Positions 1-26,949 are shown, counted from the first letter of the stretch. The stretch is DNA of 32,349 nt from a virus (IMGVR_UViG_2917865565_000006:1-32349); one strand, 5' to 3'. Numbers and translations: made by a program. The notes: generated from the sequence alone by a model not told the origin.

Positions 1-996
1 TTATGGACGCATTATGGACATTCCTGACACCGGGTTAAGAGTCACAGCATCTTGTAAGAAATCCGGTGCAAAGTGTGCGTAGGTCATAGTTTGCTGAATG
101 TCAGAATGACCCAGGATGCGCTGCAATGTGATTATGTTACCTCCATTCATTATAAAATGTGTGGCAAATGTATGCCTCAAAACATGCACTGCCTGTCCGT
201 CAGGTAAATCGGGTTTTACTTCCCTGAGAGCGTTGCGCACTTTGTAGTAACTGGCATTAAAAAGCCTGCCTGAATTTTTGGTCTTGATCCGTTTAATCAG
301 GTCCTGCGAAACGGGAATTGTCCTGCGCTTTCCGTTTTTAGTTTTCATAAACGTAACCATCTGGTTAATGATGTGTTCAGCTTTCAAATTAGACACTTCA
401 CTCCAGCGTCCACCAGTAGAAAGGCAGACCAGAGTTGCATTTAACTCATCACCATCAAGCATGGATAACAGCCGCGTAATCTCTTCACTGGACAAAAAAG
501 CCATTTCCGTAACAGCTTCACGTAACCGCTTAACCTCACGGAACGGGTTGTGAGAGTGATATTCACCGGCGTCAATTAACTTGGTGAACATCCCGCTCAT
601 TATTGCCAGATGCCGATTTACGCTGGCTGGTTTTAGACCATCGTTCATCATTACAACGCGATAATCAGTTATCGTTTTCTTTGTTAGCTGGTCCGCCCTG
701 GACACTCCCATCTCAGCAAATTTGGCGATTATTGTCGTCAAACGCCCTCGTTCAATATCTCCACGCTCATGTGATTTTCCGTGATATATCCACCATCTGC
801 CTAACAACTCTGTAAGAGTTCGGCGGTCGGCCGGCTTCTCCAACCACTCTTTGTTGTGGAAGTTAACCAGTACATGACGTTCGAATGCCTGAGCTTCACC
901 TTTAGTTTTAAATTTCCGCCTGATACGTTTTCCATCTGCACCCTGCGGTCTGACGTCCACTTCATAACGACCATCATCGAGCTTTTTAATAGACAT
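1..996 (-). CDS. int: Tyrosine integrase (P2 Int-like), 331 aa
   Basis: Minus-strand ORF at the left edge; C-terminal LRHTFAT and LGHSDIQQTMTYAH motifs match the tyrosine-recombinase catalytic signature; sits next to the C repressor as in P2. Confidence 0.9.
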   Translation of the reverse strand: MSIKKLDDGRYEVDVRPQGADGKRIRRKFKTKGEAQAFERHVLVNFHNKEWLEKPADRRTLTELLGRWWIYHGKSHERGDIERGRLTTIIAKFAEMGVSRADQLTKKTITDYRVVMMNDGLKPASVNRHLAIMSGMFTKLIDAGEYHSHNPFREVKRLREAVTEMAFLSSEEITRLLSMLDGDELNATLVCLSTGGRWSEVSNLKAEHIINQMVTFMKTKNGKRRTIPVSQDLIKRIKTKNSGRLFNASYYKVRNALREVKPDLPDGQAVHVLRHTFATHFIMNGGNIITLQRILGHSDIQQTMTYAHFAPDFLQDAVTLNPVSGMSIMRP

Positions 997-1089
997 AAAG
1001 CCCTCCGATGACGCTGTTTACTTCTACTACTTGAAAATTAATGCAATTTTCTTTCGTACATTTACTGCACACATATGCTGAATAAATCG

Positions 1090-1389
1090 TCAGCCAGTCT
1101 TTTGGTCTGAGTGGTGCAAGGTTGTTGAGTCTTGCCCAATGTGTGCGAGCGCCGGGGCTATTTGTCCGGCAGCGGGATCTGTCTCATCAAACATGAACCA
1201 GTCACGATATTTACGGAATCTTGGGTGTTTCAGAAGTCGCACTACCGCGTCATGTGAAATGGATGATTTCCCATTTTCGTACCCCACATAGGTAACGTAA
1301 TTAATACCTGTCATTTCAGCTACTTCCTTCTTCTTGAGGCGTTCAGACTCACGAATAAGTTTAAGTTTCTCACGAATCTCAATTGACAT
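1090..1389 (-). CDS. C: Immunity repressor C (P2 C family), 99 aa
   Basis: 99-aa minus-strand ORF between int and the divergent early operon; C-terminal GQIAPALAH tail as I recall for P2 C; N-terminal half appears divergent, suggesting a different immunity specificity. Confidence 0.8.
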   Translation of the reverse strand: MSIEIREKLKLIRESERLKKKEVAEMTGINYVTYVGYENGKSSISHDAVVRLLKHPRFRKYRDWFMFDETDPAAGQIAPALAHIGQDSTTLHHSDQKTG

Positions 1390-1493
1390 AATGAATCAGA
1401 TCTCTTATTTTTAATCCGTTGTGATATTCCACACCTAACTCTAGCCAACTCTAACTAGCTTTAGTTTGTGGAGCCAATTAGGAGAATAGCAAA
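1390..1493. promoter_or_regulatory. Divergent early/repressor promoter region (Pe/Pc analogue) with direct-repeat candidate operators
   Basis: 104-bp AT-rich gap between the divergent C and cox-like genes; direct repeats AACTCTA at 1437-1443 and 1447-1453 and CTAACT at 1435-1440 and 1451-1456; RBS AGGAG 9 nt before the ATG at 1494. Confidence 0.55.
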
Positions 1494-1850
1494 ATGAATG
1501 TCGGATCTGAAATTTCTGACGAGACAAGACAAGAAGTCTCAGTTCTTACAAAAGCAAAACGTCATTCAGTTAAATTGGCTGCTGTGCCTTCAGATTTGCT
1601 GTCGAAAGAGGGTTTTGCTCTTTACATAGGTAAGACACCACGCGCTGTAGCAGAAATGGCGAGAGCAGGCAAGCTCCCTGCGTTCTATATGACAGACCCA
1701 CTGAAGCCAGGGGGGAATGCTGAGTTATGGATTAATCGTCGTGAGTGGGACAAATATGCAGCTCAACTAGTCGATGAAGCTCCGACAGAATGGCATGACT
1801 GGAAGAACCGCATTAGTTATAGCAAGTCGAAATTAGGGCGTATGGTGTGA
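1494..1850 (+). CDS. Cox-like excisionase / early regulator (118 aa, longer than the 91 aa I recall for P2 Cox)
   Basis: First gene of the rightward early operon, opposite C; good RBS; GKLP..MTDP segment; assignment is by position and weak similarity only. Confidence 0.5.
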   Translation: MNVGSEISDETRQEVSVLTKAKRHSVKLAAVPSDLLSKEGFALYIGKTPRAVAEMARAGKLPAFYMTDPLKPGGNAELWINRREWDKYAAQLVDEAPTEWHDWKNRISYSKSKLGRMV

Positions 1851-1859
1851 GGGCATGTT

Positions 1860-2457
1860 ATGAACACTATAGTAGGAAACACGGCAGCTAAAAAAAATTC
1901 AATCGTTGATCATCGAGCTGCGCACGAGACTTTTGTCGATTGAAGGGCAATCTAACGTATCAGCCATAGTTGATGACATAGAAATTGAAGCGAAAAAATT
2001 AGAAGAAGAAGTTAATTTTCTGGCTTTACCTGTAAGAGCTGCAGAAATTGAGACTTTGACGCATTTAATTAAATGTGGATGTGTCAGGCTGGAAAATAAC
2101 AAAAGAGATGAACGTAATGAGATTATAAATAATTTACAAGAGTCATTTGCGTTAATCAGCCAGAATCAACATGCCCCAACTAAAACAAAAAGAAGCAAAT
2201 CAAGTAAATTTGAGGTTTTGCGTTTTGGTGATCTTTCTATTATTGGTTGCGAGCTAACCCCATTACGCAACTATGTGACTCTATACTGTAGAGCTTGTTA
2301 TGAAAATGACAGGTTTATCGGTCATGTGTACTACGGAGTATCAAAGTTATCGGGTGACGAAAAAGGTTATAGCGAATTTGATGCGCTGAGTATTATTAAT
2401 GCTGTAGAAAAATATGCGCCAGGAATGCAAAAATACTCATGGCGCAAAGTAGATTGA
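1860..2457 (+). CDS. Hypothetical protein in AT-rich moron island; probably starts at ATG 1860 and is broken by a +1 frameshift in an A8 run (1890-1897); the ORF track shows only 1906-2457
   Basis: Strong RBS GAGGG 7 nt upstream of ATG 1860; a 27-codon ORF in frame 0 becomes continuous with the 183-aa ORF if one A is removed from the A8 run (MNTIVGNTAAKK then IQSLIIELRTRLL...). No recognisable domain. Confidence 0.45.
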
Positions 2458-2459
2458 AA

Positions 2460-2666
2460 TTATTTTTCTTTATTCAGCTCTAAGTATTCGCCGATAGTAG
2501 CATGAAGATTTTTTAATTGCTCGAGTTGAATACTAATTGCAAGAACATTATCGCTTTTTAGGTTTAAGTCGGTATGAAGGTGTGCGAGTAGTCTCATCTT
2601 ACCCTCACTGACAATACCATCGATAGTGATTTTGTCTGGAAATACAGTAACAGTTTTTTTGTCCAT
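2460..2666 (-). CDS. Hypothetical small protein (68 aa from internal ATG), convergent with the upstream moron gene
   Basis: Minus-strand ORF; internal Met (MDKKTVTVFPDKITIDG...) preceded by AAGGTG RBS; the longer GTG-initiated form (to 2714) has no RBS. AT-rich. Confidence 0.45.
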   Translation of the reverse strand: MDKKTVTVFPDKITIDGIVSEGKMRLLAHLHTDLNLKSDNVLAISIQLEQLKNLHATIGEYLELNKEK

Positions 2667-2765
2667 TTTTACACCTTTTGTGGTTGGTTGTTTTTGGCGA
2701 TTCGATCTTACCACAAGACCATGTGCCGGACATGGCTAAAAACCGGCTCTGTTTCAGGAGGAGTT

Positions 2766-2936
2766 ATGCCGGAACCTCGTTGTATTGCTCAGTTATTGCG
2801 TAACGAAAGCCCAAGGGCGATTGACTTCACCATCACCCACGGTAAGGGGCGTAAGGGAATCATTATCCGCACCAAAAAACAGAGTCCGTTAAAAAAGGCT
2901 CTGACCTTTCTGAAAAGCCGGAGGGTATGGAAATGA
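2766..2936 (+). CDS. Small basic protein, orf78-like (56 aa)
   Basis: ATG at 2766 preceded by CAGGAGGAG RBS; immediately upstream of B and overlapping its start; position matches P2 orf78. Confidence 0.55.
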   Translation: MPEPRCIAQLLRNESPRAIDFTITHGKGRKGIIIRTKKQSPLKKALTFLKSRRVWK

Positions 2937-3433
2937 CAGTGATGACGCTCAATCTCGTTGAAAAACAGCCAGCAGCTATGCGCCGGATAATTGGTAAGCA
3001 TCTTGCCGTTCCTCGCTGGCAGGATACATGTGATTATTATAATCAGATGATGGAGCGCGAACGGCTAACAGTTTGCTTTCATGCGCAGTTAAAACAGCGT
3101 CACGCAACGATGCGTTTTGAAGAAATGAACGACGTCGAACGTGAACGACTGGTATGTGCAATTGATGAATTGCGTGGGGCATTCTCAAAACGTCGTCAGG
3201 TCGGTGCAAGTGAGTATGCATATATTAGTTTTTTAACAGTCAGTCAGCGCCGTACTTTATTTATGCATGCCGGATTGACTGAAAAAGAATTCAACCAGCC
3301 ATACTGGCGAATTAATGAAGAGTCATGTTACTGGCGTGATGCTTTATTCCGTGCATTACGTGAATTATTCAGTCTGTTTGAGTATGCACCGACAATTCTG
3401 ACGTCGGTAAAACCAGAGCAATATCTGCATTAA
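2933..3433 (+). CDS. B: Replication protein B (P2 gpB-like, 166 aa)
   Basis: Position in the early operon between cox/orf78 and orf80-83/A; length from the second ATG (2933) equals the 166 aa I recall for P2 B. Confidence 0.7.
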   Translation: MTVMTLNLVEKQPAAMRRIIGKHLAVPRWQDTCDYYNQMMERERLTVCFHAQLKQRHATMRFEEMNDVERERLVCAIDELRGAFSKRRQVGASEYAYISFLTVSQRRTLFMHAGLTEKEFNQPYWRINEESCYWRDALFRALRELFSLFEYAPTILTSVKPEQYLH

Positions 3434-6880: not shown

Positions 6881-8106
6881 ATGAGCATGGTTGAATGGAT
6901 AAGCCACGAGAAAAAAGATAGCCTGATACTATTTGTACATGGATTAAATGGTGGTTTGGAAACATGGAACTTTAATAAAGAAACTTCATTTCCAAAACTA
7001 TTAGCAGAAGATGAAGACATTAGCAATGTATTTGATATTGCATGTTTCAATTATTTCACCAAATTTACACAAACGTATGCTAAAAACGTCAGGATTATTG
7101 GCTCGTATTTTCTCTAAGAAAAATAAGTTAGAGAGAAATTTACCAACTGATGAAATAGCTGAGTTATTGTATACTGAGATTAGGGTAACGCTAAGTGATT
7201 ACTCTCGAATTATAATAATCGCCCATAGTATGGGGGGGTTAATATCAAAAAATCTAATTCTAAAAAAAGTTGAGCATGAGGAACAATCTAATATAATTGG
7301 ATTCATTTCGTTAGCAGTCCCTCACTTTGGTGCTAAATTAGCGAATATAACTTCAATGGTATCTTCAAATGCTCAGTTAGTAGATCTTGGATTGTTAAGT
7401 GAAGCGACTGATACATTGAATAGGCGCTGGATAAATTGTAGCAAAAAACTTCCTATCACTAGATATGTTTATGGTTCTCATGACACTATAGTTGATAAAA
7501 AAAAGTGCATTACCGATGGATAGTGAACGAAATAACTCAATTGCAGTTAATGAAGGGCATAGCTCAATTTGCAAGCCCGAAAACAGCTCGTCTACAGTGT
7601 TTGTTGCGGTAAAGCAATTTATTCAGCAGATAAATTTAGAAGCACCCAAGAAGATATGCGTTGAGCGTTTTTCTGATGAGAAACAATATGATAATGAGTA
7701 TTTCGTCTTAAAAATGATTGTCGCAGATATACATCAGGATATCGCTATGCATGCAAAGGAATATTATTATAATGCTGAGCTTGCGAGAAATATTTTTACG
7801 AGTGATTACGATAGGAAACTACTTGGTCATTTGTATTCTAAAATAAGGGAGATTTACCAGGAAGAGTATGAGCAATACATCGCGAATTCAATTTCCCCAG
7901 ATAAATTTATTGCTGCTGTTCATAGACGAATAGCCCAGGAGGATAAGTCGTCGTTAGATTCTCTTATAAAAAGTTTAGAAACGATACATAAGAAAGGAAT
8001 GTTGCATCAACTGGCTAACAAAAATGACAGGGATATTGTCTGGTCATCCGAAACCAGCGTAGAAACTTTGGAGCAATTACGGCGAGGTAATCATGAAGAA
8101 AAATAA
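6881..8106 (+). CDS. Alpha/beta-hydrolase (lipase/esterase-like) candidate defense effector with C-terminal helical domain; reading frame broken twice (three ORF-track pieces 6881-7117, 7011-7523, 7492-8106)
   Basis: Oxyanion-hole motif LILFVHGLNGG (about 6935-6955), nucleophile elbow AHSMGG (Ser codon 7227-7229) and candidate His in EGHSSICKP lie in three different frames; pieces join if one A is removed from the A5 run at 7082-7086 and from the A8 run at 7497-7504. AT-rich, unlike the backbone. Confidence 0.6.
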
Positions 8107-8606
8107 CTTGCCGTATATTCCTCTTGATGAAGAGTATAGCTTGAATTTTGCTATACTTGCCATTGCTATATCTATATTATCTCATAGCAAAAAAGGAGTG
8201 TTATCATTAGATATTAATAAAATACAAATTTTTTATGTATCTGATAAAAAACCCATCAAAAATAGATTATGCTCTTACAGTTTCGGGGAAAAAACCTGCT
8301 TGTGTCGAGTCCCAGTTAACTTATACAATAAAGAGTTTTTCATCAAATGTAGATATCTTATTCGACAATTCCAAAGTGAAATATCTTATAAAAATTATGT
8401 CATTGCGGGGATTGCTCTCAGCTGAGAAAAAAAATAATGAGAGTGTTAAATTATTTTTATCTGAAAAAGGTAAGGAATTTGCTAGCTCATTGACTGATGG
8501 ATATTTTAAAGAAATAAAACGACTATCCGAAGCATTGTTACCGCTACAAGCATTGCCTACATCTAAGTTAAACTCTGTTATAAATCAAGTCTTCAAGGAG
8601 AAATGA
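8093..8606 (+). CDS. Small middle component of the candidate three-gene system (about 170 aa), frame broken once (pieces 8093-8425 and 8235-8606)
   Basis: Start ATG 8093 with GAGGT RBS overlaps the hydrolase stop; stop overlaps the ATPase start (ATGATGA at 8603); two overlapping ORFs in different frames joinable at an A6 run (about 8246-8300). No recognisable domain. Confidence 0.5.
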
Positions 8607-10574
8607 TGAAATCATATCTCAATATCAATAGTTTGATTCTTGTTGGCGTTCGTAAAAACTACGTCACTACTTTTTATAAAGGTCTCAATGTTATCTACGG
8701 AGACTCTGACACAGGTAAGTCAAGCATTCTGGAGTTTATTAATTATCTTTTAGGTGCTAGCTCTATAGATTTAGCAGATGAAATAAAAACATCAGTAAAC
8801 TATGCTGCTCTTGAAGTAGTGATCAATGATACTGTATTCACAATCGTAAGAGATATCTATGATCATAAAAAAGCAATAGAAGTTTATCGTTGTAAGTTTG
8901 ATGATTTACATAAACATTTTCCGAAAAAATACGCTCCTAATTATAGCCCCTTATCAAATGTTGATGGTGTTTTTTCGGAGTTTTTACTTGATAGTCTTAA
9001 TTTTCCAAAGATTGAAATTAAGGTGTCTCCTTCTAAAGCTCATTCACAGATGCGCAGGTTAAGTTTTAGAAATATATATAAATTTGTTTATGTAAGTCAG
9101 GATGATATTGGTAGTAAATCTTTCTTGCGATTGGGTGATTGGTCCCGCTACGCATTTACGAAAGAAGTTTTTAAATACATGTTCAATGTGTTGGATGAAA
9201 GCATCGCCAGACTCCAAGGTGAAATATCTGCAAAAAGTAGTTTAGTAACTGAATTAAATAAGAAGTATCAGATAATATCTGAATTTCTTCGCGATACAGA
9301 CTATGAAACAATTGAATCAATTGATGATGAGATTAATAGGATAGATCTTGTTTTAGAAGAACTTGTTGCAGGTTTGTCTGCTCTCGATAAAAATATGAAA
9401 GCGGATTCCATGCAGTATACAGAATTGAAAGATGCTCACAATTTTATTTCGCTTAAATACAAAGAGTGCATATTAAATATTAGTGCGCTTGAGGATAAGA
9501 TTGATAAATATTCGCGGTTAAAAAATGACTATGATAATGATATTGAAAAACTCAAAGCGATTAAAACAGCAAATTCTCGCATTGGTGTATTGGATAAGGA
9601 AGTATTTTCCTGTCCAATCTGTGATAGCCACATTAAAATAGATGATTCTGATTTTCCATTTGAAATTTCATCAGAAAAAGATCTTAATGAAGAGTTGAAT
9701 TCACTTAGTCGACGTAGACGAAATATTAATGACATGATCTCAGAAATGTCATTTAAATTAAAAAAAGAATCAGGTTATAAAAAAAGAATTAGATGAACGA
9801 CTTGACGAGTTGAGAGAGTTGATTGACGAAGAAAGCCAGTCAATGATTACACCATTCTTGACTCAGAGAGATTTTTATATTAAAGAGATATCAAAAAATG
9901 AGAAAGTTAGGGAGCAGTTAGTAAAAGATTTGAAGGTTAGAAACCAGCAAGAGGAACTGCTTGAAAAGTATCAGGTACTGAGAAAAGATATTGAAGCATT
10001 AACTGAACGCTTGGAGGCGTTAAAGAAAAACGCACCTAGCATGGAGGGCATTTTACAAGGTTTAGGTGATAGATTTAGTCAGTATTTGAAGGGTATTAAT
10101 ATCAAAAACAGAACGGGGATAAAAATCTCTGAAAGCTATTACATTCCTGTTATAAGAGAAAAAGAATATTTTAAAATAACGTCCGGAGGTTTGAGAACTA
10201 TTTCTTCTATTGGGTATCTTTTGTCTATTCTTGATTATGCAATAGATCATAATGTTAACCATCCTTTACTTTTGATATTTGATACGGTTGGCAAATATTT
10301 AGGGAAACAGACCAAGGAAAAATATTCAAAAGAAACTCTTGCAGTCGAGGATGACCTTGAGGGAATGTCAGATCCGATGAAGTATCAAAATATTTATGAA
10401 CAACTATTGAATACAGTTCAAAAAGCAGAAAGAAAAAATGTTCCGTGCCAGATTATATTAGTTGATAATGATTTGCCTAATTCGTTTTCTACTGGTGAAC
10501 TTTCGAATATTATCGCTCATTATAGCTCGGTTGGTGAGGACGGTTTGCCTTTAGGTTTAATTGATGACCTTTAA
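8603..10574 (+). CDS. Rad50/SMC-like ABC ATPase with coiled coil and CxxC zinc hook (about 657 aa if joined); frame broken once (pieces 8603-9796 and 9810-10574)
   Basis: N-terminal Walker A GDSDTGKSS, Q-loop-like VYVSQDD, long charged helical region, CPICDSH (9611-9631), then in the next ORF the signature-like TSGGLRTIS and Walker B LLLIFD; frame 0 is open from 9762 and joins if one A is removed from the A7 run 9779-9785. Confidence 0.65.
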
Positions 10575-10703
10575 TACTATACATGCATTTTTTTGAATTA
10601 GATTGCATGTGGATAATGAGTCTATTTAGTGAAGGGAGGGTTTTGTGAGACGAGACTTTCGATAAAAATGCAACCGCATTAAAACCGCCCCATGAAGCGG
10701 GCG

Positions 10704-10722
10704 GGCGAGGCGGGGAAAGCAC
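10704..10722. other. Candidate cos cohesive-end site (GGCGAGGCGGGGAAAGCAC) within a GC-rich packaging region
   Basis: 19-nt string matches the P2 cohesive-end sequence as I recall it; lies between the last rightward cargo gene and the minus-strand Q-P terminase/portal genes, where cos sits on the P2 map. Confidence 0.55.
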
Positions 10723-10863
10723 TGCGCGCTGGCGGTGGTGCTGATTTTATTTTTTCAGCGTCTGAGCGCGTCGTGACGGCGTTTAGATTGTGCGCCGGGG
10801 CGTTGGGTGTCTGCGGGCTGTTTTGTGCGGTGGTGAGCGTGTGAGGGCGTGATGGCGGGTTGT

Positions 10864-10885
10864 AAAAAAGCCGCCCGCAGGCGGC
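10864..10885 (-). terminator. Rho-independent terminator downstream of Q (minus strand)
   Basis: On the minus strand GCCGCC-TGCG-GGCGGC hairpin followed by T6, starting about 5 nt after the Q stop codon. Confidence 0.7.
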
Positions 10886-10890
10886 GATGT

Positions 10891-11880
10891 TCAGCCGTTG
10901 TCAGTGTCCAGTGAGTAGTTTTTAAAGCGGATGACCTCCTGACTGAGCCAGCCGTTTATTTCCCGAATCCTGTCCTGTAACGGGATAAGCTCATTGCGGA
11001 CAAAGACCTTTGCCACTTTCTCAATATCACCCAGCGACCCGACGTTCTCCGGCTTGCCCCCCATCAACTGAAAGGGGATGCGGTGCGCGTCCAGCAGGTC
11101 AGCGGCGCTGGCTTTTTTGATATTAAAAAAATCGTCCTTCGTTGCCACTTCACTGAGCGGGATAATTTTAATGCCGTCGGCTTTCCCCTGTGGGGCATAG
11201 AGAAACAGATTTTTAAAGTTATTGCGGCCTTTCGACTTAACCATGTTTTCGCGAAGCATTTCGATATCGTTGCGATCCTGCACGGCATCGGTGACGTACA
11301 TGATGTATCCGGCATGTGCGCCGTTTTCGTAATACTTGCGGCGGAACAGCGTGGCCGACTCATTCAGCCAGGCAGAGTTAAGGGCGCTGAGATATTCCGG
11401 CAGGCCGTACAGCTCCTGATTAATATCCGGCTCCAGCAGGTGAAACACTGAGCCGGGCGTGAAAGGTGTCGGCTCGTTGAAGGACGGCACCCACCAGTAA
11501 ACATCCTCCTCCACACCACGGCGGGTATATTTTGCCGGTGAGGTTTCCAGTCTGATGACCTTACCGGTGGTGCTGTATCGCTTTTCCAGAAACGCATTAC
11601 CGAACACCAGAAAATCCAGCACAAAGCGGCTGAAATCCTGTTGCGAAAGCCACGGATGCGGGATAAATGTCGAGGCCAGAATATTACGTTTGACGTAAAT
11701 CGGTGAGCTGTGATGCACGGCAGCACGCAGGCTTTTTGCCAGACCGGTAAAGCTGACCGGTGGCTCATACCATCTGCCGTTACTGATGCACTCGACGTAA
11801 TCCAGAATGTCACGGCGGTCGAGTACCGGCACCGGCTCACCAAAGGTGAATGCCTCCATTTTCGGGGCGCTGGCGGTCAT
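10891..11880 (-). CDS. Q: Portal protein gpQ (329 aa as called; P2 Q is about 344 aa from memory)
   Basis: Minus-strand ORF adjacent to cos and upstream of the large terminase, as in P2; N-terminus may be mis-called (see finding on the T8 run at 11881-11888). Confidence 0.85.
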   Translation of the reverse strand: MTASAPKMEAFTFGEPVPVLDRRDILDYVECISNGRWYEPPVSFTGLAKSLRAAVHHSSPIYVKRNILASTFIPHPWLSQQDFSRFVLDFLVFGNAFLEKRYSTTGKVIRLETSPAKYTRRGVEEDVYWWVPSFNEPTPFTPGSVFHLLEPDINQELYGLPEYLSALNSAWLNESATLFRRKYYENGAHAGYIMYVTDAVQDRNDIEMLRENMVKSKGRNNFKNLFLYAPQGKADGIKIIPLSEVATKDDFFNIKKASAADLLDAHRIPFQLMGGKPENVGSLGDIEKVAKVFVRNELIPLQDRIREINGWLSQEVIRFKNYSLDTDNG

Positions 11881-11925
11881 TTTTTTTTGCCGCAGGTCGC
11901 GGTGTTTTCCCTTTTTTCTTGCTCA

Positions 11926-13698
11926 TCAGTAAAACTCCAGAATGGTGGATGTCAGCGGGGTGCTGATACCGGCAGTGAGTGGCTCATTTAACAGGGCGTG
12001 CATGGTCGCCCAGGCGAGGTCGGCGTGGCTGGCTTCCTCGCTGCGGCTGGCCTCATAGGTGGCGCTGCGTCCGCTGCTGGTCATGGTCTTGCGGATAGCC
12101 ATAAACGAGCTGGTGATGTCGGTGGCGCTGACGTCATATTCCAGACAGCCACGACGGATAACGTCTTTTGCCTTGAGCACCATTGCGGTTTTCATTTCCG
12201 GCGTGTAGCGGATGTCGCGCGCGGCGGGATAGAACGAGCGCACGAGCTGGAACACGCCGACACCGAGGCCGGTGGCATCAATACCGATGTATTCGACGTT
12301 ATATTTTTCGGTGAGTTTGCGGATGGATTCCGCCTGGGTGGCAAAGTCCATGCCTTTCCACTGATGGCGCTCAAGTATTCTGAATTTGCCACCGGCCACC
12401 ACCGGCGGTGCCAGCACCACGCATCCGGCACTGTCGCCACGGTGTGACGGGTCGTAACCAATCCATACCGGGCGGGAGCCGAACGGATTCGCGGCAAACG
12501 GCGCATAGTCTTCCCATTCTTCCAGCGTGTCGACCATGCAGCGTTGCAGCTCCTCGAACGGGAATACCGACGCCTTGTCGTCAACAAATTCACACATGAA
12601 CAGGTTTTTAAAATCGTCGGCGCTGTTTTCACGTTTGAGCTGCTCAATGTCGAACAGCGTGCAGCCACCTTTCAGGGCGTCCTCAATGGTGACAATCTGC
12701 CGCCACTGGCCGTCCGCACAGAGAAGACCTCCGGCAAGGGCGTTATGACTGACGTCGATTTCCACGCGTTCGGCGGCGCTGGCGCGTCCCCGGTTGAACA
12801 GTTCACCCGACCAGAACGGGTAGGCGTCGTGCGCCAGCGTGGACGGGGTGGAGAAATAGGTCGAGCGCAGGTGACTCTGTGAGGCCATACCTGATGCCAC
12901 CTTACGCAGTACCTGAAAATTCGGGATCCAGAAAATCTCGTCGACGTACAGGTCGCCGTTATGGCTCTGTGCGGTGTTGGAGTTGGTGCCGAGAAAAATC
13001 AGTTTTGCGCCGTTATTGCCCAGGACAATCGGGTCACCGGTCAGGTCAACGTCAACCAGCCGGGCAAAGGCGATGATGTATTCACGGAACACATACGCCT
13101 GCGTTTTACTGGCCGACAGAAAAATCTGGTTATGACCGGTTTTCAGGGCGCGCAGCAGCGCCTCGCGGGAAAAATAAAACGTCGCGCCAATCTGGCGGGA
13201 TTTCAGGATATCGCGGATGCGGTGCTCAAGCCCGGCACGATACCAGTGCAACTGATAGTCGAAAGACTGCTCAAAGAAAATCTGCTCCAGCTTTTCGATG
13301 GCCTCGTCACTGAAAAAATTCTTTTTCGGTTTGCGCCGTCCGCCTTTGTTGCGGTTAGCGACGTTCGGATTAAGGTCTGCCTCGTTGCCGGTCTGACTGT
13401 AGCGGTTGACCCGTGCCAGTCGTTCAATCTGGCGTCCGAGCAGGTCAATTTCCTTGAAGTCACCACCGGTTTTCTGCGGTTTGATGATGAGCTGGGTCAG
13501 CCGCGCTTCCAGACTCATTTCGACACGGCTGATGGGGGCAACGCTGTCCCAGCCGTCGCGTTGTTTCCAGCTCTGCACCGTCGGGCGTTTCATCTGCAAC
13601 ATGGCGGCAATCTGCGGTACGGAAAACCCCTGCCAGTACAGCAGCGCCGCCTGACGACGCGGGTCGTGTAAAAGAGTGGTGTCTGTGGTGATGGTCAT
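11926..13698 (-). CDS. P: Terminase large (ATPase) subunit gpP, 590 aa from ATG at 13698
   Basis: Minus-strand ORF next to Q; start at MTITTDTT with GAGGT RBS gives 590 aa, equal to P2 P as I recall; N-terminal HTH-like region. Confidence 0.9.
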   Translation of the reverse strand: MTITTDTTLLHDPRRQAALLYWQGFSVPQIAAMLQMKRPTVQSWKQRDGWDSVAPISRVEMSLEARLTQLIIKPQKTGGDFKEIDLLGRQIERLARVNRYSQTGNEADLNPNVANRNKGGRRKPKKNFFSDEAIEKLEQIFFEQSFDYQLHWYRAGLEHRIRDILKSRQIGATFYFSREALLRALKTGHNQIFLSASKTQAYVFREYIIAFARLVDVDLTGDPIVLGNNGAKLIFLGTNSNTAQSHNGDLYVDEIFWIPNFQVLRKVASGMASQSHLRSTYFSTPSTLAHDAYPFWSGELFNRGRASAAERVEIDVSHNALAGGLLCADGQWRQIVTIEDALKGGCTLFDIEQLKRENSADDFKNLFMCEFVDDKASVFPFEELQRCMVDTLEEWEDYAPFAANPFGSRPVWIGYDPSHRGDSAGCVVLAPPVVAGGKFRILERHQWKGMDFATQAESIRKLTEKYNVEYIGIDATGLGVGVFQLVRSFYPAARDIRYTPEMKTAMVLKAKDVIRRGCLEYDVSATDITSSFMAIRKTMTSSGRSATYEASRSEEASHADLAWATMHALLNEPLTAGISTPLTSTILEFY

Positions 13699-13871
13699 GA
13701 ATACCTCGCCGTGATGAATACACGGCAAGGCTACTGAGTCGCGCCCCGCGATTCGCTAAGGTGCTGTTGTGTCAGTGATAAGCCATCCGGGACTGATGGC
13801 GGAGGATGCGTATCGTCGGGAAACTGATGCCGACATGTGACTCCTCTAATCACTATTCAGGACTCCTGACA

Positions 13872-14726
13872 ATGGCAAAAAAAGTCTCAAAATTCTTTCG
13901 TATCGGCGTTGAGGGTGACACCTGTGACGGGCGTGTCATCAGTGCGCAGGATATTCAGGAAATGGCCGAAACCTTTGACCCGCGTGTCTATGGTTGCCGC
14001 ATTAACCTGGAACATCTGCGCGGCATCCTGCCTGACGGTATTTTTAAACGTTATGGCGATGTGGCCGAACTGAAGGCCGAAAAGATTGATGACGATTCGG
14101 CGCTGAAAGGCAAATGGGCGCTGTTTGCGAAAATCACCCCGACCGATGACCTTATCGCGATGAACAAGGCCGCGCAGAAGGTCTACACCTCAATGGAAAT
14201 TCAGCCGAACTTTGCCAATACCGGCAAATGTTATCTGGTGGGTCTGGCCGTCACCGATGACCCGGCGAGCCTCGGCACGGAATACCTGGAATTCTGCCGC
14301 ACGGCAAAACACAACCCTCTGAACCGCTTCAAATTAAGCCCTGAAAACCTGATTTCAGTGGCAACGCCCGTTGAGCTGGAATTTGAAGACCTGCCTGAAA
14401 CCGTGTTCACCGCCCTGACCGAAAAGGTGAAATCCATTTTTGGCCGCAAACAGGCCAGCGATGACGCCCGTCTGAATGACGTGCATGAAGCGGTGACCGC
14501 TGTTGCTGAACATGTGCAGGAAAAACTGAGCGCCACTGAGCAGCGCCTCGCAGAGATGGAAACCGCCTTTTCCGCACTTAAGCAGGAGGTGACTGACAGG
14601 ACGGATGAAACCAGTCAGGCATTCACCCGCCTGAAAAACAGTCTCGACCACACCGAAAGTCTGACCCAGCAGCGCCGCAGCAAGGCCACCGGCGGTGGCG
14701 GTGACGCCCTGATGACGAACTGCTGA
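13872..14726 (+). CDS. O: Capsid scaffolding protein gpO (284 aa)
   Basis: First gene of the rightward late operon, divergent from P; start at MAKKVSKFF gives 284 aa as in P2 O. Confidence 0.9.
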   Translation: MAKKVSKFFRIGVEGDTCDGRVISAQDIQEMAETFDPRVYGCRINLEHLRGILPDGIFKRYGDVAELKAEKIDDDSALKGKWALFAKITPTDDLIAMNKAAQKVYTSMEIQPNFANTGKCYLVGLAVTDDPASLGTEYLEFCRTAKHNPLNRFKLSPENLISVATPVELEFEDLPETVFTALTEKVKSIFGRKQASDDARLNDVHEAVTAVAEHVQEKLSATEQRLAEMETAFSALKQEVTDRTDETSQAFTRLKNSLDHTESLTQQRRSKATGGGGDALMTNC

Positions 14727-14784
14727 CTGGCGTCAGTCAGTCCGGGAAAACCTTCACGATTAACCCTTAATTTCAGGAAAAACT

Positions 14785-15858
14785 ATGCGCCAGGAAACCC
14801 GCTTTAAATTTAATGCCTACCTGTCCCGTGTTGCCGAACTGAACGGCATCGACGCCGGTGATGTGTCGAAAAAATTCACCGTTGAACCGTCGGTCACCCA
14901 GACCCTGATGAACACCATGCAGGAGTCCTCTGATTTTCTGACCCGCATCAACATTGTGCCGGTCAGCGAAATGAAAGGGGAAAAAATTGGTATCGGTGTC
15001 ACCGGCTCCATCGCCAGCACCACCGACACCGCCGGTGGCACCGAGCGTCAGCCGAAGGACTTCTCGAAGCTGGCGTCTAACAAGTACGAATGCGACCAGA
15101 TTAACTTCGATTTTTATATCCGCTACAAAACGCTTGACCTGTGGGCGCGTTATCAGGATTTCCAGCTCCGTATCCGTAACGCCATTATCAAACGCCAGTC
15201 CCTTGATTTCATCATGGCCGGTTTTAACGGCGTGAAGCGTGCCGAAACCTCTGACCGCAGCAGCAATCCGATGCTGCAGGATGTGGCGGTCGGCTGGCTG
15301 CAGAAATACCGCAATGAAGCCCCGGCGCGCGTGATGAGCAAGGTCACTGACGAGGAAGGCCGCACCACCTCTGAGGTTATCCGCGTGGGTAAGGGCGGTG
15401 ATTATGCCAGCCTTGATGCACTGGTGATGGATGCGACCAACAACCTGATTGAACCGTGGTATCAGGAAGACCCTGATCTTGTGGTGATTGTGGGACGTCA
15501 GCTACTGGCGGACAAGTATTTCCCCATCGTTAACAAGGAGCAGGACAACAGCGAAATGCTGGCCGCTGACGTCATCATCAGCCAGAAACGCATCGGTAAC
15601 CTGCCGGCGGTACGCGTCCCGTACTTCCCGGCGGATGCGATGCTCATCACGAAGCTGGAAAACCTGTCCATCTACTACATGGATGACAGCCATCGCCGCG
15701 TGATTGAGGAAAACCCGAAACTCGACCGCGTGGAGAACTACGAGTCAATGAACATTGATTACGTGGTGGAAGACTACGCCGCCGGTTGTCTGGTGGAAAA
15801 AATTAAGGTCGGTGATTTCTCCACACCGGCTAAGGCGACCGCAGAGCCGGGAGCGTAA
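14785..15858 (+). CDS. N: Major capsid protein gpN (357 aa)
   Basis: Position after O and length equal to P2 N. Confidence 0.9.
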   Translation: MRQETRFKFNAYLSRVAELNGIDAGDVSKKFTVEPSVTQTLMNTMQESSDFLTRINIVPVSEMKGEKIGIGVTGSIASTTDTAGGTERQPKDFSKLASNKYECDQINFDFYIRYKTLDLWARYQDFQLRIRNAIIKRQSLDFIMAGFNGVKRAETSDRSSNPMLQDVAVGWLQKYRNEAPARVMSKVTDEEGRTTSEVIRVGKGGDYASLDALVMDATNNLIEPWYQEDPDLVVIVGRQLLADKYFPIVNKEQDNSEMLAADVIISQKRIGNLPAVRVPYFPADAMLITKLENLSIYYMDDSHRRVIEENPKLDRVENYESMNIDYVVEDYAAGCLVEKIKVGDFSTPAKATAEPGA

Positions 15859-15861
15859 CCG

Positions 15862-16605
15862 ATGACGAGTCCCGCACAGCGCCACATGATGCGGGTCTCG
15901 GCAGCGATGACCGCGCAGCGGGAAGCCGCCCCGCTGCGACATGCAACTGTCTATGAGCAGATGCTGGTTAAGCTCGCCGCAGACCAGCGCACACTGAAAG
16001 CGATTTATTCAAAAGAGCTGAAGGCCGCGAAAAAACGCGAACTGCTGCCGTTCTGGTTGCCGTGGGTGAACGGCGTGCTGGAGCAGGGCAAAGGTGCACA
16101 GGATGACATTCTGATGACAGTCATGCTGTGGCGTCTGGATACCGGCGATATTGCCGGTGCGCTGGAGATTGCCCGTTATGCCCTGAAGTACGGCCTGACC
16201 ATGCCGGGTAAACACCGCCGCACCCCGCCGTACATGTTCACCGAGGAGGTGGCGCTCGCGGCCATGCGCGCCCACGCTGCCGGTGAGTCTGTGGATCCCC
16301 GCCTGCTGACGGACACCCTCGAACTGACCGCCATGGCTGACATGCCTGATGAAGTGCGCGCAAAGCTGCATAAAATCACCGGTCTGTTTCTGCGTGACGG
16401 TGGTGATGCCGCCGGTGCGCTGGCGCACCTGCAACGTGCGACACAGCTCGACTGTCAGGCCGGCGTCAAAAAAGAGATTGAACGACTGGAGCGGGAGCTG
16501 AAACCGAAGCCGGATCCGCAGCCCAAAGCAGCGCCCCGCGCCCCGCGTAAGACCCGGAGCGTGACACCGGCAAAACGTGGACGCCCGAAAAAGAAAGCCA
16601 GTTAA
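15862..16605 (+). CDS. M: Terminase small (endonuclease) subunit gpM (247 aa)
   Basis: Position after N; length equals P2 M; basic proline/lysine-rich C-terminus. Confidence 0.85.
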   Translation: MTSPAQRHMMRVSAAMTAQREAAPLRHATVYEQMLVKLAADQRTLKAIYSKELKAAKKRELLPFWLPWVNGVLEQGKGAQDDILMTVMLWRLDTGDIAGALEIARYALKYGLTMPGKHRRTPPYMFTEEVALAAMRAHAAGESVDPRLLTDTLELTAMADMPDEVRAKLHKITGLFLRDGGDAAGALAHLQRATQLDCQAGVKKEIERLERELKPKPDPQPKAAPRAPRKTRSVTPAKRGRPKKKAS

Positions 16606-16704
16606 CAACCGAATGCGCCCCGCGCCAGGGCGGCACGCCGGTCAGTGAGGGTGAATCACCTGACGCTGTACCGGCGTCCACCGCCCGACTTTTCAGAGGT
16701 AGTC

Positions 16705-17214
16705 ATGATGACGCTGATTATTCCGCGAAAGGAGGCTCCCGTGTCCGGTGAGGGTACGGTGGTCATCCCGCAACCGGCAGGCGACGAGCCGGTGATTAAA
16801 AACACGTTCTTTTTTCCCGATATCGACCCGAAGCGCGTCCGGGAACGTATGCGCCTTGAGCAGACCGTCGCCCCCGCCCGTCTGCGTGAGGCCATCAAGT
16901 CAGGCATGGCGGAGACCAATGCGGAGCTGTACGAGTACCGCGAACAGAAAATTGCCGCCGGTTTTACGCGTCTGGCGGACGTCCCGGCGGACGACATCGA
17001 CGGTGAAAACATCAAAGTTTTTTACTACGAGCGCGCCGTGTGTGCGATGGCGACCGCGTCGCTTTATGAGCGTTATCGTGGCGTGGATGCCAGTGCGAAA
17101 GGCGACAAGAAGGTTGACAGCATTGACAGCACCATTGATGAGCTGTGGCGGGATATGCGCTGGGCAGTGGCGCGCATCCAGGACAAGCCGCGCTGCATCG
17201 TGAGTCAAATCTGA
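16705..17214 (+). CDS. L: Head completion/stabilisation protein gpL (169 aa from ATG 16705)
   Basis: AGAGG RBS before ATG 16705; that start gives 169 aa as in P2 L; the ORF-track start at 16645 is an in-frame extension. Confidence 0.85.
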   Translation: MMTLIIPRKEAPVSGEGTVVIPQPAGDEPVIKNTFFFPDIDPKRVRERMRLEQTVAPARLREAIKSGMAETNAELYEYREQKIAAGFTRLADVPADDIDGENIKVFYYERAVCAMATASLYERYRGVDASAKGDKKVDSIDSTIDELWRDMRWAVARIQDKPRCIVSQI

Positions 17215-17417
17215 TGAAGACCTTTGCGCTACAGGGCGACACGCTCGACGCCATTTGTGTCCGGTATTACGGGCGCACTGAGGGCGTGGTCGAGACTGTG
17301 CTCGCCGCAAATCCGGGACTGGCTGAACTGGGTGCGGTGCTGCCGCACGGCACCGCCGTCGAACTGCCCGACGTTCAGACCGCGCCCGTGGCTGAAACTG
17401 TCAATCTGTGGGAGTAA
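17214..17417 (+). CDS. X: Tail protein X (67 aa)
   Basis: ATG at 17214 overlaps the L stop (ATGA-type overlap); 67 aa as in P2 X. Confidence 0.8.
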   Translation: MKTFALQGDTLDAICVRYYGRTEGVVETVLAANPGLAELGAVLPHGTAVELPDVQTAPVAETVNLWE

Positions 17418-17420
17418 CGC

Positions 17421-17702
17421 ATGACAGCAGAAGAAAAAAGCGTCCTGTCGCTTTTCATGATTGGGGTGCTGATTGTTGTCGGCAAGGTGCTTGCCGGTGG
17501 CGAACCCATCACCCCGCGTCTGTTTATCGGGCGCATGTTGCTCGGTGGTTTTGTCTCGATGGTTGCCGGTGTTGTTCTGGTGCAGTTTCCTGACCTGTCA
17601 CTGCCTGCGGTGTGCGGCATCGGCTCCATGCTGGGTATCGCCGGTTATCAGGTGATTGAGATAGCCATTCAGCGCCGCTTTAAGGGCAGGGGGAAACCGT
17701 AA
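17421..17702 (+). CDS. Y: Holin gpY (93 aa)
   Basis: Hydrophobic protein with predicted transmembrane segments immediately upstream of the endolysin; length equals P2 Y. Confidence 0.85.
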   Translation: MTAEEKSVLSLFMIGVLIVVGKVLAGGEPITPRLFIGRMLLGGFVSMVAGVVLVQFPDLSLPAVCGIGSMLGIAGYQVIEIAIQRRFKGRGKP

Positions 17703-18199
17703 TGCCGGTAATTAACACGCATCAGAATATCGCCGCCTTTCTCGACATGCTGGCGGTGTCCGAAGGGACGGCGAATCATCCGCTGACGAAAAACCGGGGC
17801 TATGACGTGATAGTCACCGGACTGGACGGGAAGCCGGAAATTTTCACCGACTATAGTGACCACCCGTTCGCGCATGGCCGACCGGCGAAGGTGTTTAACC
17901 GTCGCGGTGAAAAATCCACGGCCTCCGGTCGCTATCAGCAGCTTTACCTGTTCTGGCCGCACTACCGCAAACAGCTTGCCCTGCCGGATTTCAGTCCGTT
18001 GTCACAGGACAGGCTCGCCATTCAGTTGATCCGCGAACGCGGTGCGCTGGAGGACATCCGGGCGGGACGCATTGAGCGCGCCATTTCACGCTGTCGCAAT
18101 ATCTGGGCGTCCCTGCCGGGTGCCGGTTACGGTCAGCGTGAGCATTCACTGGAAAAACTGGTCACCGTCTGGCGTACCGCTGGCGGCGTACCGGCTTAA
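17702..18199 (+). CDS. K: Endolysin gpK (165 aa)
   Basis: Follows the holin; length equals P2 K; lysis-cassette position. Confidence 0.85.
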   Translation: MPVINTHQNIAAFLDMLAVSEGTANHPLTKNRGYDVIVTGLDGKPEIFTDYSDHPFAHGRPAKVFNRRGEKSTASGRYQQLYLFWPHYRKQLALPDFSPLSQDRLAIQLIRERGALEDIRAGRIERAISRCRNIWASLPGAGYGQREHSLEKLVTVWRTAGGVPA

Positions 18200-18213
18200 A
18201 CGGAGTAAACACC

Positions 18214-18639
18214 ATGAAGAAATTATCCCTTTCACTGATGCTGAACGTGTCGCTGGCACTGATGCTGGCACTGTCCCTGATTTACCCGCAGAGCGTGGCC
18301 GTCAGTTTTGTCGCTGCCTGGGCGATTCTGGCGACGGTTATCTGTGTGGTTGCCGGTGGTGTCGGCGTGTATGCCACTGAGTATGTGCTGGAACGCTACG
18401 GACGGGAGCTGCCGCCGGAATCGCTGGCCGTGAAGATTGTCACGTCGCTGTTTTTGCAGCCGGTGCCGTGGCGCAGACGGGCGGCGGCTCTGGTGGTGAT
18501 GGTGGCGACGTTTATCTCGCTGGTCGCTGCCGGGTGGATTTTTACCGCACTGATTTATCTCGTGGCATCGCTGTTTTTCCGGCTGATACGTACGGCCTGT
18601 CGTCAGCGTTTTGAGGGGCGGGAACTATGTCAAAGCTGA
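18214..18639 (+). CDS. lysA: Lysis regulator LysA, membrane protein (141 aa)
   Basis: Multi-pass hydrophobic protein after K; length equals P2 LysA. Confidence 0.8.
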   Translation: MKKLSLSLMLNVSLALMLALSLIYPQSVAVSFVAAWAILATVICVVAGGVGVYATEYVLERYGRELPPESLAVKIVTSLFLQPVPWRRRAAALVVMVATFISLVAAGWIFTALIYLVASLFFRLIRTACRQRFEGRELCQS

Positions 18640-19052
18640 TGATTGTGCTGGTCGTGTTGTTATCACTGGCGGTGGCGGGGCTGTTTCTGGCGAAGCATGA
18701 AAACGCCAGACTGCGCGCCTCGCTGGGCAGGGCGAACAACGTCGCCAGCGGGCAGCAGACGACCATCACCATGCTGAAAAATCAGCTTCATGTTGCCCTC
18801 ACCAGGGCAGACAAAAACGAGCTGGCGCAGGTGGCACTGCGTCAGGAACTGGAGAACGCCGCGAAACGTGAAGCACAGCGCGAGAAAACCATCACGAGGT
18901 TACTTAATGAAAACGAGGATTTTCGCCGCTGGTATGGCGCTGACCTGCCTGATGCTGTGCGCCGGTTGCACCAGCGTCCGGCCTGCACTGACGCCAGTGA
19001 TTGTCGCCAACGCCTGCCCGAAAGTGAGCCTTTGCCCGATGCCGGGCAGTGA
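18627..19052 (+). CDS. lysB: LysB, Rz-like inner-membrane spanin (141 aa)
   Basis: N-terminal transmembrane helix followed by charged helical region; position after lysA. Confidence 0.8.
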   Translation: MSKLMIVLVVLLSLAVAGLFLAKHENARLRASLGRANNVASGQQTTITMLKNQLHVALTRADKNELAQVALRQELENAAKREAQREKTITRLLNENEDFRRWYGADLPDAVRRLHQRPACTDASDCRQRLPESEPLPDAGQ

Positions 19053-19197
19053 CCCGCAGACGAACGGCGATTTAAGTGCCGATATCCGGCAGCTTGAGAA
19101 CGCGCTGGCACGCTGTGCCAGCCAGGTAAAAATGATTAAACACTGTCAGGACGAAAACGATGCTCAAACCCGACAGCCTGCGCAGGGCGCTGACTGA
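18907..19197 (+). CDS. lysC: LysC, Rz1-like outer-membrane lipoprotein spanin (96 aa from ATG 18907), starting inside lysB in another frame and extending past its stop
   Basis: Alternate-frame ORF with signal peptide and lipobox (LCAGC) beginning MKTRIFAAGMALTCLMLCAGC; overlaps lysB and the start of R. Confidence 0.75.
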   Translation: MKTRIFAAGMALTCLMLCAGCTSVRPALTPVIVANACPKVSLCPMPGSDPQTNGDLSADIRQLENALARCASQVKMIKHCQDENDAQTRQPAQGAD

Positions 19198-20072: not shown

Positions 20073-20138
20073 TTGTGCCATTCCTGACACCTCATCGTCA
20101 CATTGCCGCCGGTATGACCCGGCGGCATCCTTCCCGTT

Positions 20139-21118: not shown

Positions 21119-21122
21119 AACC

Positions 21123-22554: not shown

Positions 22555-22564
22555 GTGAGAAACA

Positions 22565-25617: not shown

Positions 25618-25621
25618 ATAC

Positions 25622-25650
25622 AGGCGGGCGGATTGCCCGCCTTTTCTTTA
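25622..25650 (+). terminator. Rho-independent terminator after G
   Basis: AGGCGGGC-GGATT-GCCCGCCT hairpin followed by TTTCTTTATCTGTTGTTT. Confidence 0.75.
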
Positions 25651-25746
25651 TCTGTTGTTTCATCCACTGACCAGTCAGGACAAATAGCGTCTCATGCCCT
25701 GTACAACTGAAAATACCACTCACCCATTAACCACGGAGTTAAACGG

Positions 25747-26937: not shown

Positions 26938-26949
26938 GGAGCCTGACCG

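What the first reader, a model, noticed from the sequence alone, without database searches (positions are those of the whole stretch)
11878..11928. T8 homopolymer at the portal gene start with an out-of-frame lysine-rich 16-codon ORF beginning at the P stop
On the minus strand, an ATG overlapping the P stop opens a 16-codon ORF (MSKKKGKTPRPAAKKK) that ends in an ATGA overlap with the annotated Q start; the run of A's between them (T8 at 11881-11888 on the plus strand) puts it out of frame with Q. Fused, the product would be about 345 aa, close to the roughly 344 aa I recall for P2 Q, versus 329 aa as called here. This is either a further homopolymer length error (opposite in sign to the cargo ones), or a genuinely shorter portal with a coupled leader peptide.
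Basis: partly seen in the sequence, partly recalled or inferred. Interest (0 to 1): 0.5.

Follow-up and report, generated by a model that had tools for sequence, protein, structure and literature searches.

The report
Ion Torrent homopolymer error in portal gene
The apparent frameshift at the start of this P2-like prophage's portal gene is one extra T wrongly called in a run of eight by Ion Torrent sequencing, so the portal is an ordinary 344-residue P2 gpQ.

Summary
The run is real in the deposited sequence. It is T9 at 11880-11888, and it puts the ATG that overlaps the terminase stop (11924-11926) out of frame with the called 329-aa portal.

The window is contig PDIJ01000007.1 of Escherichia sp. 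E2562, an Ion Torrent-only draft. A second assembly of the same strain (VATM01000004.1) and two Logan read assemblies carry the same prophage at the same chromosomal site. They show no substitutions against the window. The only differences are six single-base gaps, and each is a +1 in an A/T homopolymer of the window. The other five gaps break a small early gene and the three cargo genes. The clean copies have T8.

Removing one T gives exactly the 344-aa portal of the second assembly, which is 98% identical to P2 gpQ (MSKKKGKTP...). T8 is found in at least 120 IMG/VR contigs and in every top-ranked complete E. coli genome shown. T9 is found nowhere else.

Verdict: a sequencing artefact. It is not a shorter portal, a leader peptide or recoding.

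The parts
11880..11888 (-). Homopolymer called as A9 (T9 on the plus strand). The true length is 8. The single extra base is the artefact.
   Evidence: Searches give the run coordinates. Searches show T8 in the second E2562 assembly and in Logan SRR8835204, with 0 mismatches around it. Searches give exact-match counts in IMG/VR: A7 0, A8 at least 120, A9 0, A10 0.
11924..11926 (-). Native start codon of portal gene Q. Its A is shared with the terminase P stop TGA at 11926-11928 (TGATG coupling).
   Evidence: The same arrangement is annotated in P2 AF063097, where Q is 187..1221 and P is 1221..2993.
11935..11938 (-). GGAG Shine-Dalgarno, 8 nt upstream of the native Q ATG. The internal ATG at 11880 has only GCGGCAAAAAAAA upstream.
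   Evidence: sequence read directly.
11882..11926 (-). The 15 codons MSKKKGKTPRPAAKK. This is the basic N-terminal extension of gpQ, cut off from the body of the gene by the extra base.
   Evidence: The basic extension is family-wide.
10891..11880 (-). Portal gene as called in the deposited assembly (329 aa, TGC19353.1). It is the body of gpQ from Met16 onward.
   Evidence: Pfam PF04860 scores 53 bits against a cut-off of 39.1.
10891..11926 (-). True portal gene Q. With one T removed from 11880-11888 it encodes 344 aa, identical to TLI83715.1 / WP_138158476.1 of Escherichia sp. E2562.
   Evidence: the repaired translation equals P0031; name and accession; 337/343 identical to P2 gpQ.
11837..11926 (-). 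Spurious 29-codon ORF. It is the true Q leader running on in the wrong frame after the extra base.
11926..13698 (-). Terminase large subunit gene P (590 aa), upstream of Q in the same operon.
9779..9785 (+). A second overcall of the same kind (A7, true A6). It splits the 655-aa AAA/SMC ATPase of the cargo into pieces of 397 and 254 aa.
8229..8234 (+). Overcall (T6, true T5). It splits the 170-aa MC4 cargo protein.
7497..7504 (+). Overcall (A8, true A7). It is one of the two that break the 407-aa ABC-three-component system protein.
7082..7086 (+). Overcall (A5, true A4). It is the other one in the 407-aa ABC-three-component system protein.
1890..1897 (+). Overcall (A8, true A7). It shortens a 198-aa early-region ORF to a 183-aa call.

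Best explanation
The extra T at 11880-11888 is a base-calling or consensus error of flow-based (Ion Torrent) sequencing. It is not a property of the phage.

The real sequence has T8, which is A8 on the coding strand (GCA AAA AAA ATG). The portal gene Q then starts at the ATG that overlaps the terminase stop. That start has a GGAG Shine-Dalgarno 8 nt upstream and is translationally coupled to P. It encodes a normal 344-residue P2-type portal whose first ~15 residues are a lysine-rich extension.

In the deposited contig the overcalled run shifts the frame. The annotation pipeline therefore fell back on the in-frame Met16 and produced a 329-aa product. The orphaned leader reads on as a meaningless 29-codon ORF.

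Shown: the extra base, its absence from independent assemblies of the same strain, and the platform used. Inferred: that the error arose at the base-calling or consensus stage, because the raw reads were not inspected.
For: 1. Source and platform. The 329-aa product maps only to GCA_004745205.1, contig PDIJ01000007.1, Escherichia sp. E2562. That genome was made from single-end Ion Torrent reads only, at about 50x, assembled with MIRA and SPAdes (PMC6639607).

2. Same strain, second assembly. GCA_005781075.1 (VATM01000004.1) is named Escherichia sp. E2562. It matches window 9370-19226 with 0 mismatches and 2 gaps, at 9779 and 11880. It matches window 12565-32349 with 0 differences. It encodes a 344-aa portal.

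3. Logan assembly of SRR8835204. Over 22,283 nt, including 5.5 kb of host flank, it shows 0 substitutions and exactly 6 gaps. Each gap is a +1 in an A/T run of the deposited contig: 1890, 7082, 7497, 8229, 9779 and 11880. The other five break a small early gene and the three cargo genes, which are intact at 407, 170 and 655 aa in the clean copies.

4. Rate against run length. The overcall rate rises with the true run length: 1/167 for length 4, 1/93 for 5, 1/39 for 6, 2/10 for 7 and 1/3 for 8. From my own knowledge, this is the signature of flow-space homopolymer error.

5. Repair. Deleting one T reproduces TLI83715.1 exactly. That protein is 337/343 identical to P2 gpQ.

6. Population.
- All 40 listed phage hits and all 60 listed complete E. 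coli genome hits span 400 nt for the 401-nt query.
- With a 91-nt query, the best of 1,763 E. coli places is 97.8% identical with a 90-nt span, so no A9 copy is seen.
- IMG/VR exact matches are A8 at least 120, and A7, A9 and A10 all 0.
- A9 gives 0 matches in the GTDB representative genomes and in JGI metagenomes.

7. Logan contig SRR6148323_78 carries the same prophage. It ends exactly after 8 T in this run, as expected if the reads disagree on the run length there.
Against: - The raw reads (SRX3260343) were not examined, so a real +1 mutation in the culture sequenced in 2017 is not formally excluded.
- I could not establish the platform of the second E2562 assembly, or which strains SRR8835204 and SRR6148323 come from.
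- Frameshifted leaders do occur in a few other assemblies: A5 in the first A run in three SRA runs and two IMG/VR contigs, and A7 in one assembly. A portal gene with a broken leader is therefore not unheard of in databases.
Confidence: 0.96

Rival explanations
1. The +1 insertion is a genuine mutation in the E2562 prophage. The portal is then either translated from Met16 as a 329-aa protein without the basic extension, or not made at all, which would make the prophage defective.
For: - The reads were not inspected.
- The internal ATG is in frame and preceded by an A-rich tract.
- gpQ is proteolytically trimmed during maturation (PMC7552001). From memory of Rishovd et al. 1994, not verified here, the trimming removes about 26 N-terminal residues, so the mature portal could be unchanged.
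- Other lineages carry leader frameshifts that recur in three independent SRA runs.
Against: - A second assembly of the same strain has T8.
- Six same-sign homopolymer indels with zero substitutions in 22 kb would need six independent real frameshifts, most of them gene-breaking, and no point mutation.
- The platform is Ion Torrent.
- T9 is absent from every other collection searched.
- The internal ATG has no Shine-Dalgarno.
Confidence: 0.03
2. The arrangement is functional recoding, or a coupled leader peptide. Either a short lysine-rich ORF coupled to P regulates Q, or ribosomal or transcriptional slippage on the A9 tract fuses the leader to the portal body.
For: Long A runs are known slippage sites for RNA polymerase and ribosomes (my own knowledge). 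The upstream ATG has a good GGAG and overlaps the P stop.
Against: - The out-of-frame arrangement is not conserved. Relatives have A8 or AAAAACAA and are in frame. Homologues in other genera encode the basic extension as part of one ORF.
- The same strain's other assembly is in frame.
Confidence: 0.005
3. The tract is a phase-variable (contingency) homopolymer that switches portal expression on and off by slipped-strand mispairing. The two E2562 assemblies would have caught the two states.
For: Two assemblies of one strain differ in the run length. One other assembly has A7.
Against: - The same pair of assemblies differs in the same direction at five unrelated A/T runs as short as 4-5 bases. 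That is not how contingency loci behave.
- The length is A8 in at least 120 IMG/VR contigs and in all listed E. coli genomes.
- Many relatives interrupt the run (AAAAACAA in P2 itself).
Confidence: 0.005

Closest known systems
Bacteriophage P2 gpQ (portal protein, 344 aa; AAD03268.1 in AF063097) and the P-Q operon
   Same: - The repaired protein is 337/343 identical to P2 gpQ.
- The start ATG overlaps the P stop in the same way.
- It has the same lysine-rich N-terminus MSKKKGKTP.PAAK.MTAS.
- Gene order is the same: Q and P face O-N-M-L.
- It hits Pfam PF04860.
   Different: Nothing is different once the extra base is removed, apart from six substitutions. P2 itself has the run interrupted (AAAAACAA, Lys-Thr-Met), whereas this lineage and most E. 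coli prophages have A8 (Lys-Lys-Met).
Homopolymer length miscalls of flow-based sequencing (Ion Torrent / 454) that produce false frameshifts and split genes in draft genomes
   Same: - The library is Ion Torrent only.
- All differences from clean copies are single-base indels in homopolymers, with no substitutions.
- The frequency rises with run length.
- The annotation shows truncated or split CDSs.
   Different: All six errors here are overcalls and all are in A/T runs. That may reflect the assembler consensus and the scarcity of long G/C runs. It was not investigated further.
Programmed -1 frameshift of the P2 tail chaperone genes E/E+E' and other homopolymer recoding sites
   Same: The only shared features are a homopolymer next to an apparent frame change and the fact that both lie in a P2-type genome.
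   Different: A recoding site is conserved out of frame in relatives. Here all relatives are in frame.

Membership tests
P2-type portal protein gpQ (Pfam PF04860 Phage_portal) | Significant match to the Phage_portal profile above the curated cut-off | tested here: met
   53 bits against a cut-off of 39.1, for both the 329-aa call and the repaired 344-aa protein.
P2-type portal protein gpQ (Pfam PF04860 Phage_portal) | Near-full-length identity to P2 gpQ, including the N-terminal MSKKKGKTP... extension | tested here: met
   337/343 identical after removal of one T. The leader is 13/15 identical.
P2-type portal protein gpQ (Pfam PF04860 Phage_portal) | P2 head-gene synteny: Q lies downstream of P with stop/start overlap, divergent from O-N-M-L | tested here: met
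P2-type portal protein gpQ (Pfam PF04860 Phage_portal) | Dodecameric portal at one capsid vertex, processed by the gpO protease | not testable with these tools
   This rests on the literature only (PMC7552001). No solved structure is found by sequence.
Flow-space homopolymer sequencing artefact | The sequence was produced on a flow-based platform without polishing by another chemistry | tested here: met
   Ion Torrent single-end reads, MIRA and SPAdes (PMC6639607).
Flow-space homopolymer sequencing artefact | The difference is absent from an independent assembly of the same strain | tested here: met
   VATM01000004.1 (Escherichia sp. E2562) has T8 and a 344-aa portal.
Flow-space homopolymer sequencing artefact | Errors are confined to homopolymers, rise with run length, and come without substitutions | tested here: met
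   Six gaps out of six lie in A/T runs and there are 0 substitutions. Rates run from 1/167 at length 4 to 1/3 at length 8.
Flow-space homopolymer sequencing artefact | Raw reads show mixed or ambiguous run lengths at the site | not testable with these tools
The only hint is indirect: the Logan contig of SRR6148323 ends inside the run.
Programmed frameshift / transcriptional slippage site | The out-of-frame arrangement is conserved among relatives | tested here: not met
   Relatives are in frame with A8 or AAAAACAA. More distant homologues have one continuous ORF.
Phase-variable homopolymer (contingency locus) | Run length is polymorphic across strains or isolates at this locus specifically | tested here: not met
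   IMG/VR has A8 at least 120 times and A7, A9 and A10 0 times. The E2562 discrepancy is shared by five unrelated runs.

The most novel reading that the evidence does not exclude
The least ordinary reading still open has two parts. First, the A-rich leader of P2-type portal genes may be a natural hot spot for real single-base slippage. Second, portals that lose the ~15-residue basic extension may remain functional through initiation at Met16, because the N-terminus is trimmed off during maturation anyway. Such variants are seen here as A9, elsewhere as A5 in the first run in three SRA runs and two IMG/VR contigs, and as A7 in one assembly. For this window that would mean the T9 is real in the stock that was sequenced.
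Probability: 0.03. Interest if true: 0.2.

Novelty: not a real feature. Interest (0 to 1): 0.03.

Why it matters
The finding matters only as quality control. The 329-aa portal TGC19353.1 and the split cargo genes in PDIJ01000007.1 are annotation casualties of Ion Torrent homopolymer overcalls. They should not be read as pseudogenes, truncated proteins, leader peptides or recoding.

Any other homopolymer-linked frameshift flagged in this window, or elsewhere in the 16 genomes of that study, deserves the same suspicion. The corrected picture is an intact P2-like prophage with an intact ABC-three-component cargo system.

Tried and rejected
- Exact-pattern scans for the A9 variant in IMG/VR, the GTDB representative genomes and JGI metagenomes found nothing. 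A7 and A10 also gave nothing in IMG/VR.
- I looked for a solved P2 portal structure, to see where the ordered N-terminus begins. No sequence match exists in the PDB.
- I tried to verify the exact gpQ maturation cleavage site from the literature. Only the general statement that gpQ is cleaved was retrievable. The Chang 2009, Dearborn 2012 and 2026 P2 cryo-EM papers are not held, and a further search gave nothing useful.
- I tried to learn the platform of the second E2562 assembly and the identity of the SRA runs. No paper mentions VATM01, and the follow-up paper from the same laboratory does not discuss sequencing.
- Looking up the sheath protein to fetch the right half of the prophage returned only unrelated E. 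coli prophages. The lineage-specific tail-fibre protein worked instead.
- I considered mismatch-repair-mutator indels as a real-mutation variant. I rejected this because there are zero substitutions alongside six indels and the other assembly of the same strain lacks them.

Full report
**What is in the sequence**

On the minus strand the terminase gene P ends ...TTT TAC TGA, with the TGA at 11928-11926. An ATG at 11926-11924 shares its A with that stop, and a GGAG lies 8 nt upstream at 11938-11935.

From this ATG the sequence reads ATG AGC AAG AAA AAA GGG AAA ACA CCG CGA CCT GCG GCA AAA AAA AAT GAC... This translates as MSKKKGKTPRPAAKK followed by NDRQRPENGGIHLW*, an ORF of 29 codons at 11837-11926.

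The called portal ORF (10891-11880, 329 aa) starts at an ATG whose A is the last base of an A9 run. On the plus strand that run is T9 at 11880-11888, the longest homopolymer in the window. The two ATGs are 46 nt apart and therefore out of frame.

Three details do not hold. The '16-codon ORF' and the 'ATGA overlap' would both need one more A than is present. The claim that the error is opposite in sign to the cargo errors is also wrong, as shown below.

**What the relatives look like**

In the P2 reference genome, gpQ is annotated from the ATG that overlaps the P stop. It is 344 aa long and begins MSKKKGKTPQPAAKTMTASGPKMEAF.

In the alignment, P2 has GC-AAAAACAA-TG and P2_4E6b has GC-AAAAAAAA-TG. 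The window has one more A than either. Further comparisons agree:
- All 40 listed phage hits and all 60 listed complete E. coli genome hits cover the 401-nt query with a 400-nt span.
- With a 91-nt query, the best of 1,763 places in complete E. coli genomes is 97.8% identical with a 90-nt span. That equals one substitution plus one gap, so no A9 copy ranks above the A8 copies.
- A9 is absent from the GTDB representative genomes and from JGI metagenomes.

The basic extension is a family trait. About 110 full-length homologues from Klebsiella, Serratia, Cronobacter, Citrobacter, Salmonella, Edwardsiella and other genera, at 75-99% identity, all have 18-27 residues with 3-9 Lys/Arg ahead of the conserved MEAFTFGEP core. 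Most of the more distant ones have no internal Met at the position of Met16.

**Where the window comes from**

The 329-aa product exists on a single record: GCA_004745205.1, contig PDIJ01000007.1, TGC19353.1, Escherichia sp. E2562. The genome announcement states that this genome was sequenced only with single-end Ion Torrent reads (35-400 nt, about 50x) and assembled with MIRA and SPAdes (PMC6639607).

**The decisive comparison**

The same prophage, at the same chromosomal site, is present in three other assemblies:
- a second assembly named Escherichia sp. E2562 (GCA_005781075.1, VATM01000004.1; portal TLI83715.1, 344 aa);
- a Logan assembly of the raw run SRR8835204;
- a Logan assembly of the raw run SRR6148323.

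Over 22,283 nt, including 5.5 kb of host flank, the deposited contig and the SRR8835204 contig differ by 0 substitutions and 6 single-base gaps. Each gap is one extra base in an A/T homopolymer of the deposited contig.

| Window position | Called run | True run |
|---|---|---|
| 1890 | A8 | A7 |
| 7082 | A5 | A4 |
| 7497 | A8 | A7 |
| 8229 | T6 | T5 |
| 9779 | A7 | A6 |
| 11880 | T9 | T8 |

VATM01000004.1 matches window 9370-19226 with 0 mismatches and only the gaps at 9779 and 11880. It matches window 12565-32349 perfectly.

In the clean copies the three cargo genes are intact at 407, 170 and 655 aa, and the portal is 344 aa. In the deposited contig they are cut into 78+170+196, 123, 396+251 and 329 aa.

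The overcall frequency rises steeply with the true run length: 1/167, 1/93, 1/39, 2/10 and 1/3 for lengths 4 to 8. The Logan contig from SRR6148323 ends exactly after the eighth T of this run. Removing one T from 11880-11888 yields a protein identical to TLI83715.1, which is 337/343 identical to P2 gpQ.

**Interpretation**

The best explanation is a flow-space homopolymer overcall that was carried into the consensus (confidence about 0.96).

With T8 the gene reads GCA AAA AAA ATG ACC, which is Ala-Lys-Lys-Met16-Thr. Q is then a normal P2 portal gene, translationally coupled to P and served by the GGAG upstream. With the spurious ninth T, the annotation pipeline could only call the gene from Met16.

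The steps shown are the extra base, its absence from other assemblies of the same strain and from the family, the platform, and the pattern of companion errors. The step inferred is that the error lies in the reads or the consensus rather than in the DNA, because the reads could not be inspected.

**Rivals**

- *A real +1 mutation, giving a 329-aa portal from Met16 or a defective prophage (about 0.03).* It would need six independent same-sign frameshifts with no substitution, and a different state in another assembly of the same strain.
- *Recoding or a coupled leader peptide (about 0.005).* It fails because the out-of-frame state is not conserved in any relative.
- *Phase variation (about 0.005).* It fails because the same two assemblies differ in the same way at five unrelated runs as short as four bases, and because the population is fixed at A8.

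**Comparison with what is known**

This is P2 gpQ in every tested respect: the Pfam PF04860 match, 98% identity, synteny, the start/stop overlap and the basic N-terminus. The anomaly belongs to the well-known class of Ion Torrent/454 homopolymer artefacts that create false frameshifts.

It is not novel. Its only value is as a warning about this assembly and its 15 sister genomes.

**Side observations**

A few other database copies have a broken leader. The first run is A5 instead of A6 in three SRA-derived contigs and two IMG/VR contigs, and one assembly has A7 in the second run. I do not know whether those are errors or real.

gpQ is reported to be trimmed during maturation (PMC7552001). I recall about 26 N-terminal residues from Rishovd et al. 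1994, but could not verify that here. A leaderless portal is therefore not inconceivable, but nothing here requires it.

Noticed in passing
window 1890-1897, 7082-7086, 7497-7504, 8229-8234, 9779-9785: Five more +1 overcalls in A/T homopolymers, relative to clean copies of the same prophage. They shorten one early gene (198 aa called as 183 aa). They also split all three cargo genes (407, 170 and 655 aa) into fragments that could be mistaken for pseudogenes.
   Followed up: yes
window 6881-10574: The cargo between replication gene A and Q lies in the P2 variable hotspot next to cos. It is an ABC-three-component system with three genes:
- a 407-aa protein with DUF676/lipase-like and CTD8 domains;
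- a 170-aa MC4 middle component;
- a 655-aa AAA_23/SMC-like ATPase.

The same cassette, at 98.8-99% identity, is present in 96 complete E. coli genomes, many of them O157:H7.
   Followed up: partly
L126, L127, L129 (about 1455-1500); L007, L011; L133: Other database copies of P2-type Q genes have a frameshifted leader and a 329-aa call. In three SRA-derived contigs and two IMG/VR contigs the first run is A5 instead of A6 (AAGAAAAAGGG). One long-contig assembly (GCA_974498335.1) has A7 in the second run. Whether these are real or artefacts is not known.
   Followed up: partly
L150, last 40 bases (= window 11848-11887): The Logan contig SRR6148323_78 carries the same prophage and terminates exactly after eight T of this run. 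This suggests that the k-mer graph breaks there because the reads disagree on the run length.
   Followed up: no
N-termini of proteins P0066-P0180: The basic N-terminal extension of P2-type portals is conserved in composition and length (18-27 aa, 3-9 K/R) but not in sequence across Enterobacterales. The internal Met that allowed the 329-aa call is absent from most homologues at about 75-80% identity, although it recurs in several lineages outside the P2/E. coli group. The function of the extension is not established here.
   Followed up: partly
L148 4665-6489 and L161 19567-22523 (flanks of the window): The prophage sits between a radical-SAM activase gene (pflA-like) on the integrase side and pflB-like and focA-like genes on the ogr side. 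Some E. coli P2-like prophages returned (L151, L160) show the same right flank.
   Followed up: no
window 8427-8434: At this A8 run the window agrees with O157:H7 strain TW14359 and with the clean E2562 copies. E. coli OkiPb01683 has A7 and a shortened MC4 gene (399 nt instead of 513 nt). In that case the frameshift lies in the reference genome, not in the window.
   Followed up: partly
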